From Eledone cirrhosa (lineage: Eukaryota), in the NCBI GenBank assembly GCA_964016885.1, contig OZ024765.1, positions 5,332,001-5,396,000 of the forward strand: 64,000 nt of DNA, in the 5' to 3' direction. Under the pieces are notes generated by a model that had not been told where the DNA came from, did no database searches, and saw only the letters and a list, made by a program, of their open reading frames with translations. Below, one piece after another: positions 53,841 to 55,215 of this stretch (the stretch's first letter is position 1; each line of letters starts with the position of its first letter). Made by a program: the position numbers and the translations under genes.

Positions 53841-53942
53841 TTGAATAATATTAAAAACTCCAGGAAAATCATTTGTTGAGTGCTTTTAATCGATTGTAAT
53901 ATCGTATTCGTTGTGCAATGAACGAACCATACTAATCTTTGG

Positions 53943-53999
<57 letters not shown>

Positions 54000-54031
54000 T
54001 AACAGATTAAAGTTTAAGCATTTATTATTAT

Positions 54032-54105
<74 letters not shown>

Positions 54106-54219
54106 CGAAGGAAAAGTGGTAAGGAACCAGATGGACCATAACGCACCAAAGTACTCAATACTTAGGGTAGTAGAGCCGTCGAAACGGCTTGAGCTCTGCC
54201 GTCGGGGTCATATTTGTTC

Positions 54220-54306
<87 letters not shown>

Positions 54307-54815
54307 TATATATATGCAGAGGTTATATTTAATTTGTTGGGATTCAACATTTTTATAACTGATATAAAGCACTCAACTGAAAGTGGAGTAAATATACAAT
54401 ATATTAACAAATGGAAACTATATTTATAAAACCATATTTATTTTATTATACATATTTCAAGGGCCACCAAGGCAAATTATGGTGCGCTTTCATCTGATAA
54501 AAAACAATACAGATTTGAAAAAGGACAACCTTAACGGTTGGAGCTTCCAGGAAGCTCCAACCGTTAAGGTTGTCTCTTTTTTCAGGGTATGTCAATATTT
54601 ATTTATAAAACAAATCTGTATTTTATCTGATGAAAGCGCACCATAATTTGCCTTGGTGGCCCTTGAAATATGTATAATAAAATAAATATGGTTTTATAAA
54701 TATAGTTTCCATTTGTTAATATATTGTATATTTACTCCACTAAGCTGTTGAGTGCTTTATATCAGTTATAAAAATGTTTAAGCTTGTTGAATCCCAACAA
54801 ATTAAATATAACCTT

Positions 54816-54877
<62 letters not shown>

Positions 54878-54990
54878 AACAAGTATGACCCCGACGGCAG
54901 AGCTCAAGCTGTTTCGACGGCTCTACTACCCTAAGTATTGAGTACTTTGGTGCGTTATGGTCCATCTGGTTCCTTACCACTTTTCCTTCG

Positions 54991-55044
<54 letters not shown>

Positions 55045-55076
55045 ATAATAATAAATGCTTAAACTTTAATCTGTTA

Positions 55077-55113
<37 letters not shown>

Positions 55114-55215
55114 CCAAAGATTAGTATGGTTCGTTGATTGCACAACGAATACGATATTACAATCGATTAGAAGCACTCAACAAATGATTTTCCTGGAGTT
55201 TTTAATATTATTCAA
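53841..55215. repeat. 1.37-kb composite inverted repeat; hammerhead at 54619-54684 (+)
   Basis: Centre gagcttcc-a-ggaagctc (54549). Each arm is B element, (TA)n, A element, (TA)n, 45-bp spacer, (TA)n, B-like 3' end. Confidence 0.9.

What the first reader, a model, noticed from the sequence alone, without database searches (positions are those of the whole stretch)
53841..55215. 1.37-kb composite palindrome duplicating a train of different elements and microsatellites
Seen: the arms mirror four separate modules separated by (TA)n tracts of unequal length, with a 1-nt centre (cc-a-gg, 54549). The embedded family A copy has the same unusual junction (gtagtagag|ccgtcgaaac) in both arms, so the train was duplicated as a unit. 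The copy at 63848 shows ctatccaggaagctcc as native element sequence, so the pivot is a 2-bp microhomology. Only the plus-strand hammerhead keeps CTGATGA; the minus one reads CAGATGA. Inference: 3' transduction of a read-through transcript followed by fold-back, meaning these elements can mobilise flanking DNA and spread (TA)n, creating their own targets.
Basis: partly seen in the sequence, partly recalled or inferred. Interest (0 to 1): 0.72.

Follow-up and report, generated by a model that had tools for sequence, protein, structure and literature searches.

The report
Penelope insertion mirroring its own flank
A back-to-back pair of Penelope-type jumping-gene ends sits at the centre of a 1.4-kb mirror image; one arm is most likely a backward copy of the DNA right beside the element, made on the spot rather than carried in from elsewhere, and similar mirrored flanks recur at a few other insertions in this genome.

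Summary
The palindrome is real (arms 53841-54548 and 54550-55215). The central pair is the hammerhead-bearing pseudo-LTR of a Penelope-like element (PLE). Its pivot is ordinary: the same pivot motif occurs at 40 places in the genome. What is unusual is that both arms carry the element's tail and mirror three older inserts beyond it.

3' transduction from a distant donor is not supported. The unique junction occurs only in the two arms, and the right arm runs on into an intact element while the left arm breaks off. The left arm is therefore likely a local inverted copy of element plus target flank.

This recurs: 8 of 78 two-tailed pattern hits in three families mirror 35-270 non-repeat-tract bases of flank. 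In 4 of 4 informative donor tests there was no donor. Divergence fits copying at or near insertion, but the tests are weak. No read or empty-site test succeeded.

LINE-1 and yeast break repair give known analogues. I found no PLE description in six literature searches. This scan has reported similar PLE cases in other genomes.

The parts
53777..53831 (.). Left-flank (TA)n tract, 55 nt; likely site where the copied strand rejoined
   Evidence: role inferred
53831..53842 (+). 12-nt piece identical to the start of module D (53997-54008); likely a template slip at the outer junction
53841..53943 (+). Copy of the tail end of module C only; breaks off about 10 nt beyond the point where tail-less C arms normally end
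53995..54034 (.). Module D, left copy: 40-nt stub of another (TA)n-associated family with an inverted arm plus tail end
54105..54222 (-). Module A, left copy: short inverted arm plus tail, with a junction found only at this locus
54316..54548 (-). Module B, left arm: PLE pseudo-LTR with tail; 29-nt and 10-nt deletions; hammerhead core CAGATGA at 54496
54547..54551 (.). Pivot CC-A-GG; the pivot pattern (loop 0-6 nt) matches 40 places genome-wide
54550..54818 (+). Module B, right arm: PLE pseudo-LTR; minimal type I hammerhead-like motif (core 54627); tail about 54735-54818
   Evidence: a 96% copy, L066, runs on into the ORF start
54876..54991 (+). Module A, right copy (inferred resident)
55042..55081 (.). 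Module D, right copy (inferred resident)
55113..55404 (-). Module C, whole resident copy with hammerhead core at 55307 and its own short inverted arm; only 55113-55215 is mirrored
53944..55112 (.). Three mirrored pairs of (TA)n tracts: 53944-53994/55082-55112, 54035-54104/54992-55041, 54223-54315/54819-54875

Best explanation
The palindrome is a head-to-head pair of Penelope-like pseudo-LTRs whose left arm is likely a local, DNA-templated backward copy of the element plus about 400 bases of the target flank on its right, probably made while the insertion was being repaired. Shown: B is a PLE pseudo-LTR; the pivot is a recurrent family inversion point; the right arm continues as resident sequence; no donor was found. 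Inferred steps: (1) A, D and C already lay in a (TA)n cluster. (2) B inserted beside A; cDNA primed from the right-hand (TA)n ran to the usual stop at CTATCCAGG. (3) Instead of pairing with a second, tail-less cDNA from the other target end, as likely happens in ordinary one-tailed pairs, its 3' end paired with itself at CC/GG. (4) A polymerase copied back through the cDNA, the tail, A, D and 103 nt of C. (5) It slipped to the end of D for 12 nt and rejoined the left flank in (TA)n, which is self-complementary. The (TA)n lengths and the left-arm deletions then drifted.
For: No donor here or at L187, L283, L280 (2 hits each); the L283 test sequence lies wholly in the flank. One arm runs on while the other breaks off at 6 of 8 mirrored-flank loci. 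Ordinary pairs have one tail: 53 of 56 head-to-head pairs in the 1.01-Mb survey, 2 with none, and this locus alone with two; none of the 39 other pivot matches has two tails or a mirrored flank. Timing: B shares 1 rare variant in 269 nt between arms and A 0 in 116, against 4 in 103 for C. At L187 the B arm is 99% like dozens of other copies and the mirrored flank differs at 1 of 263 sites. Body and tail are equally diverged between arms, 53/2765 vs 28/1532, p=0.91, in 21 clean pairs. Transcripts continue past the tail into the ORF (L214, L066), yet stubs end at the tail. This fits reverse transcription starting at fixed internal sites (PMC11167929), which argues against copying read-through RNA. 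Analogues: LINE-1 insertions with inverted duplication of the target (PMC10191854; bioRxiv 10.1101/2024.12.14.628481).
Against: No empty-site allele and no reads across the structure were seen. The timing tests are weak and lean slightly towards later copying: shared-rare to arm-different counts are 8:32 in 20 two-tailed pairs vs 5:59 in 26 one-tailed pairs, p=0.12; body 2.7% vs tail plus flank 2.0% in the 8 mirrored loci, p=0.28 (the L265 flank was not measured). With all 27 alignable pairs, including broken ones, the body is more diverged than the tail (3.9 vs 2.2%, p=0.0006), although between-locus controls lean the same way (4.7 vs 3.2%). A hairpin with a 1-nt loop is strained; the folding program opens it to 3 nt. 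At the TTGTA site the two B arms resemble different family variants. L261 has identical A arms inside a mirrored flank that is 7% diverged, which this model does not explain. Genome searches score only the best candidates, and exact patterns miss a mutated donor.
Confidence: 0.55

Rival explanations
1. Later extension: B first formed an ordinary one-tailed pair. Later a replicating or repairing strand folded back on that 185-bp hairpin, copied on through the tail and flank, and returned at (TA)n.
For: A ready hairpin exists at ordinary copies. It also predicts no donor and one resident arm. Two-tailed pairs show a non-significant excess of shared rare variants. Body is more diverged than tail in the unfiltered set.
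Against: In 21 clean pairs body and tail are equally diverged. B here has at most 1 shared rare variant against several arm differences. At L187 insertion and duplication are both very young.
Confidence: 0.22
2. Re-insertion in cis: a resident B promoter made a read-through RNA over A, D and C, and its cDNA was inserted at the element's own 5' end.
For: Needs no distant donor. The PLE endonuclease can nick its own pseudo-LTR, and the pseudo-LTR likely holds the promoter (PMC11167929).
Against: If such RNAs were substrates, most copies should land elsewhere, and none was found in 4 of 4 informative tests. The copied arms end at varied flank positions, not at the fixed RT start sites.
Confidence: 0.09
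3. One reading: 3' transduction from a distant donor, with fold-back or two-ended priming on the read-through RNA.
For: PLEs can move host DNA between pseudo-LTRs (PMC3846280) and extend both target strands in vitro (PMC11167929). The donor could be lost or absent from this haplotype.
Against: The old flank modules should persist at a donor even without B, yet they are single-locus here and at L187, L283 and L280. The right arm includes a whole older C element.
Confidence: 0.06
4. Nested insertion: an older palindrome C-D-A-(TA)n-A-D-C later received a B pair in its central (TA)n.
For: L261 looks like such a case. B targets (TA)n.
Against: It needs two rare events, since two-tailed B pairs were 0 of 15 others in the survey. 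The outer arms are not more diverged than the B arms.
Confidence: 0.05
5. Assembly artefact from a folded-back long read.
For: No read support was obtained.
Against: The arms differ by substitutions, indels up to 29 nt, and 20-35 nt in each (TA)n tract. The outer junction has a templated piece.
Confidence: 0.03

Closest known systems
Endonuclease-positive PLE insertions with an inverted 5'-truncated pseudo-LTR and one-sided tail (PMC3846280, parts 1-3 of 5 read; PMC8557442, passages; PMC11167929, main text)
   Same: Head-to-head pseudo-LTRs, hammerhead motif, (TA)n target, parent ORF with RT and C-terminal endonuclease motifs, tail on one outer end in ordinary copies.
   Different: Here both arms have the tail and the mirror extends about 400 nt into the target flank. 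The tail is about 84 nt, against 30-40 bp in those papers.
LINE-1 insertions with local inverted duplication (PMC10191854, one passage: 52-220 bp, about 0.3% of insertions; bioRxiv 10.1101/2024.12.14.628481, passages)
   Same: A rare local inverted copy of target DNA at a retrotransposon insertion, pivoting on a 2-bp microhomology with a small hairpin.
   Different: The quoted LINE-1 duplications lie on the 5' or reciprocal end and copy flank only. Fold-backs of the RT-extended end in that preprint are large rearrangements. Here the element and its 3' flank are mirrored together and resolved locally in (TA)n.
Fold-back inverted duplications at double-strand breaks in yeast (PMC11724301, PMC10622511; abstracts only)
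   Same: Microhomology-primed fold-back synthesis, then end capture.
   Different: Those are mostly 5-34 bp or chromosome-scale, and no retroelement is involved.
LINE-1 3' transduction (recalled) and PLE capture of host DNA between pseudo-LTRs (PMC3846280)
   Same: Element plus downstream flank appears in a second copy.
   Different: Those need a donor elsewhere; none was found here in 4 of 4 informative tests.

Membership tests
EN+ Penelope-like element (module B) | Pseudo-LTR linked to a single RT-endonuclease ORF | tested here: met
   L214 has an inverted pseudo-LTR, a pseudo-LTR, a 743-aa ORF and a 3' pseudo-LTR; B is 81-83% like them. A 96% B copy (L066) runs into the same ORF start.
EN+ Penelope-like element (module B) | RT core, Cys-rich linker and C-terminal GIY-YIG/CCHH motifs | tested here: inconclusive
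   Conserved DKT, GLYRDD, CnCr..CP...C, Y.G....R..nH, C.LC and CrH patterns across 27 sequences; the motif labels are recalled or from PMC8557442 passages. No relevant Pfam or PDB hit. One of 120 listed homologues is named a GIY-YIG endonuclease.
EN+ Penelope-like element (module B) | Type I minimal hammerhead in the pseudo-LTR | tested here: met
   CTGATGA...GAAA with helix I, II and short III pairing seen in the sequence. No Rfam hit; cleavage untested.
EN+ Penelope-like element (module B) | Inverted 5'-truncated copy with tail at one outer end only | tested here: not met
   Met by the family (13 of 16 B pairs; L214) but not by this copy, which has two tails.
EN+ Penelope-like element (module B) | Clade (Neptune, Nematis or Poseidon) by RT phylogeny | not tested
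PLE-type stubs (modules A, C, D) | Link to a PLE ORF | not tested
   Layout only: one-tailed inverted pairs in (TA)n for A (35 of 35) and C (5 of 5); D by inspection; C has a hammerhead motif.
3' transduction | Donor locus elsewhere with the same element-flank order | tested here: not met
   also 48, 76, 78 for three sister loci. Exact patterns and top-40 scoring limit sensitivity.
3' transduction | Read-through RNA; empty site lacking the whole train | not testable with these tools
   Only contigs were laid; they do not span the locus.
Retrotransposon-associated local inverted duplication | One arm resident, other arm a copy ending in microhomology or a templated junction | tested here: met
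   6 of 8 loci show one continuing arm.
Retrotransposon-associated local inverted duplication | Duplication formed at the time of insertion | tested here: inconclusive
   compatible, low power.
Non-LTR retrozyme | Tandem monomers each with a hammerhead | tested here: not met
   No tandem array here; B is part of an ORF-bearing element.

The most novel reading that the evidence does not exclude
PLE integration has a second, one-ended route in which the cDNA snaps back on itself and is copied through the element into host DNA. It leaves two-tailed palindromes that duplicate neighbouring sequence, including single-copy DNA and microsatellites. In PLE-rich genomes this would be a steady source of long palindromes and local (TA)n gain, and two-tailed versus one-tailed copies would be a genomic read-out of one-ended versus two-ended priming.
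Probability: 0.4. Interest if true: 0.6.

Novelty: new variant of a known kind. Interest (0 to 1): 0.4.

Why it matters
How PLEs build inverted pseudo-LTRs and one-sided tails is an open question (stated in PMC8557442 and PMC11167929). This locus and seven sisters give a countable exception class: two tails with a mirrored flank and, where testable, no donor. It constrains how the second strand is made and can be tested in the existing in vitro system. It also warns that element-plus-flank duplicates need not be transductions. It is a rare by-product with no sign of function, and has close analogues in LINE-1 and break repair.

Tried and rejected
Reads: Logan contigs of X1, X3, X5, X6 on 54316-54820 were swamped by the high-copy family, and no piece spans the stretch. 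X1, X3, X4, X6 on 53830-53945 gave no cover of the outer junction, which proves nothing.

Rfam gave no hit. Pfam and PDB gave no relevant hit for the parent ORF, five homologues or the alignment. The Atlas and representative-library searches returned no result, so clade placement stays open.

Donor tests at L182 and L261 were uninformative because the probes are repeats (185 and 161 hits). The D probe has 8 hits, 6 elsewhere, none with this train.

The first body/tail script parsed only 8 of 33 loci and was replaced. Of 33 B hits, 6 could not be parsed, and I then dropped 4 with broken alignments and 2 ORF-bearing elements to get the 21. That filter was chosen after seeing the data.

L261 was dropped from the mirrored-flank count as probably nested (9 of 78 with it). 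Two-tailed searches covered only one or two spacing windows per family, with exact anchors, so the counts are partial.

The idea that the left breakpoint sits exactly on C's tail boundary was rejected: it is about 10 nt beyond. The idea that the pivot is the pseudo-LTR's true end was rejected: 5 of 14 near copies extend further 5'.

Full report
Observation. The window lies at G000:C26:5332001-5396000 in a 3.0-Gb assembly. Arms 53841-54548 and 54550-55215 mirror each other around an A at 54549. From the centre outwards the modules are B (269 nt), A (116), D (40) and C (103 mirrored), separated by (TA)n tracts of 57/92, 50/70 and 31/51 nt. Two things were missed. The right arm continues as a whole C element to 55404. 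The outer 12 nt of the left arm repeat the start of D.

What the modules are. B carries a minimal type I hammerhead-like motif (Rfam silent). It is the pseudo-LTR of a Penelope-like element. L214 shows an inverted pseudo-LTR with tail, a pseudo-LTR, a 743-aa ORF and a tail-less 3' pseudo-LTR, and a 96% B copy runs into the same ORF start. The ORF has conserved RT-like, Cys-rich and GIY-YIG-like motifs across 27 sequences (labels partly recalled). Pfam and PDB gave no relevant hit. A, C and D share the layout of an inverted tail-less arm plus a tailed arm in (TA)n. Their link to an ORF was not tested.

What is ordinary. The pivot pattern matches 40 places. Of the 39 others, none has two tails or a convincingly mirrored flank (35 tabulated, 4 read). 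In a 1.01-Mb sample, 53 of 56 head-to-head pairs of A, B and C have one tail, 2 have none, and only this locus has two. Among the 35 pairs the tail lies on either side of the pivot. That fits two cDNAs made from the two target ends at two RT start sites, as the in vitro work suggests (PMC11167929, main text read) and as earlier scan notes on this genome propose. This is inference.

What is unusual, and how often. Searches for two-tailed pairs gave 33 hits for B (includes this locus), 44 for A and 1 for C. All 78 were read. Eight mirror flank beyond the element: this locus, L187 and L182 (B); L258, L265, L280 and L283 (A); L286 (C). The mirrored non-TA flank is 35-270 nt. A ninth, L261, has identical arms inside a 7%-diverged mirror and was set aside as probably nested. 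L183 and L202 share only 10 and 2 junction bases. Some of the 78 are not true pairs, and two are ORF-bearing elements.

Donor or local? The A junction has exactly 2 hits, the arms. The best other copies are 93-94% for A over its length, 95% for C and 97% for B among 40 scored candidates each. None of the 38 nearest copies fetched has these neighbours. L187, L283 and L280 also give 2 hits each; L182 and L261 were uninformative. Older flank should persist at a donor even if the element there were polymorphic, so a distant donor is unlikely. At 6 of 8 loci one arm runs on while the other breaks off, in (TA)n or at a short microhomology. Transcripts pass the tail into the ORF while stubs stop at the tail, which also argues that downstream RNA is not normally copied.

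When? At this locus both arms share 4 rare variants in 103 nt of C, 0 in 116 of A and 1 in 269 of B (16-30 relatives from my sample). So C is older, and A and B were young when copied. At L187 the B arm is 99% like dozens of copies and the flank arms differ at 1 of 263 sites. Body and tail divergence are equal in 21 clean pairs (1.92 vs 1.83%, p=0.91). Against this: the unfiltered 27 pairs show more body divergence (p=0.0006, partly from broken alignments and a more mutable body), and shared-rare counts lean towards later copying (8:32 vs 5:59, p=0.12). Timing is compatible with insertion but not shown.

Mechanism. Best (0.55): fold-back of the inserting cDNA at CC/GG, DNA-templated synthesis through the tail and flank, a slip to D, and capture of the left (TA)n. 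Next (0.22): the same copying later, from an ordinary hairpin. Together, local DNA-level copying is about 0.77. Re-insertion in cis 0.09, distant transduction 0.06, nesting 0.05, artefact 0.03. The polymerase is unknown. Reads did not test the structure.

Known relatives. The inverted pseudo-LTR with a one-sided tail is standard PLE anatomy (PMC8557442 passages; PMC3846280 parts 1-3 of 5; PMC4209133 passages). LINE-1 makes local inverted duplications of 52-220 bp in about 0.3% of insertions (PMC10191854, one passage) and on 2-bp microhomologies (bioRxiv 10.1101/2024.12.14.628481, passages). Yeast breaks do likewise (PMC11724301, PMC10622511, abstracts). Also seen: bioRxiv 10.64898/2026.07.22.740005, part 1 of 5, and PMC13282606, passages; neither part described this. 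I found no description of PLE pairs with a mirrored target flank in the listings of searches. The library lacks most subscription papers, including older Penelope work, and I read no supplements, which may hold such examples. This scan has noted similar PLE cases in other genomes, with split views on timing; those are unchecked AI notes, not support.

Verdict. A real, rare but recurrent variant of PLE insertion: a local inverted duplication, not a demonstrated transduction. New variant of a known kind; interest 0.4.

Noticed in passing
L214 = G000:C4:51866000-51872000 (ORF 781-3012): Apparently full-length PLE with an open 743-aa ORF, about 1.8 kb between the ORF and the 3' pseudo-LTR, and the tail only on the inverted upstream arm; likely a parent of family B. 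L181 and L066 are similar.
   Followed up: partly
L187 = G000:C9:20022160-20025590: Very young composite palindrome: B pair plus mirrored (CAT)n module and A-like element, with 1 difference in 263 flank sites. Best target for an empty-site test.
   Followed up: yes
L283 = G000:C25:10980000-10983500: A-family pair mirroring about 120 nt of flank whose probe is found only in the two arms.
   Followed up: partly
L261 = G000:C4:114662900-114666400: Two-tailed A pair with identical arms inside a mirrored flank about 7% diverged; nesting or central homogenisation, unexplained.
   Followed up: partly
window 55461-55680: Another inverted-repeat insert between (TA)n tracts, just right of the palindrome, with no other copy in the window.
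   Followed up: no
window 27425 and 39953 (minus strand): Further hammerhead-like cores from families other than B and C.
   Followed up: no
window 56150-56500 and 52000-52350: A satellite of CTAGTTGGAGT units spaced by (GA)n, and a 29-bp tandem array.
   Followed up: no
L048 and L050 (G000:C1:342.08 Mb and 341.33 Mb): Two C copies with identical flanks about 750 kb apart; a segmental duplication or an assembly duplicate.
   Followed up: no
L017, L242, L252, L257: A-family copies that continue past the tail into a shared sequence, a lead to the parent element of family A.
   Followed up: no
and one search hit lists: Several same-strand hit pairs 500-640 bases apart (for example C6:39538034, 39538671, 39539306), suggesting tandem arrays of two other families.
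   Followed up: no
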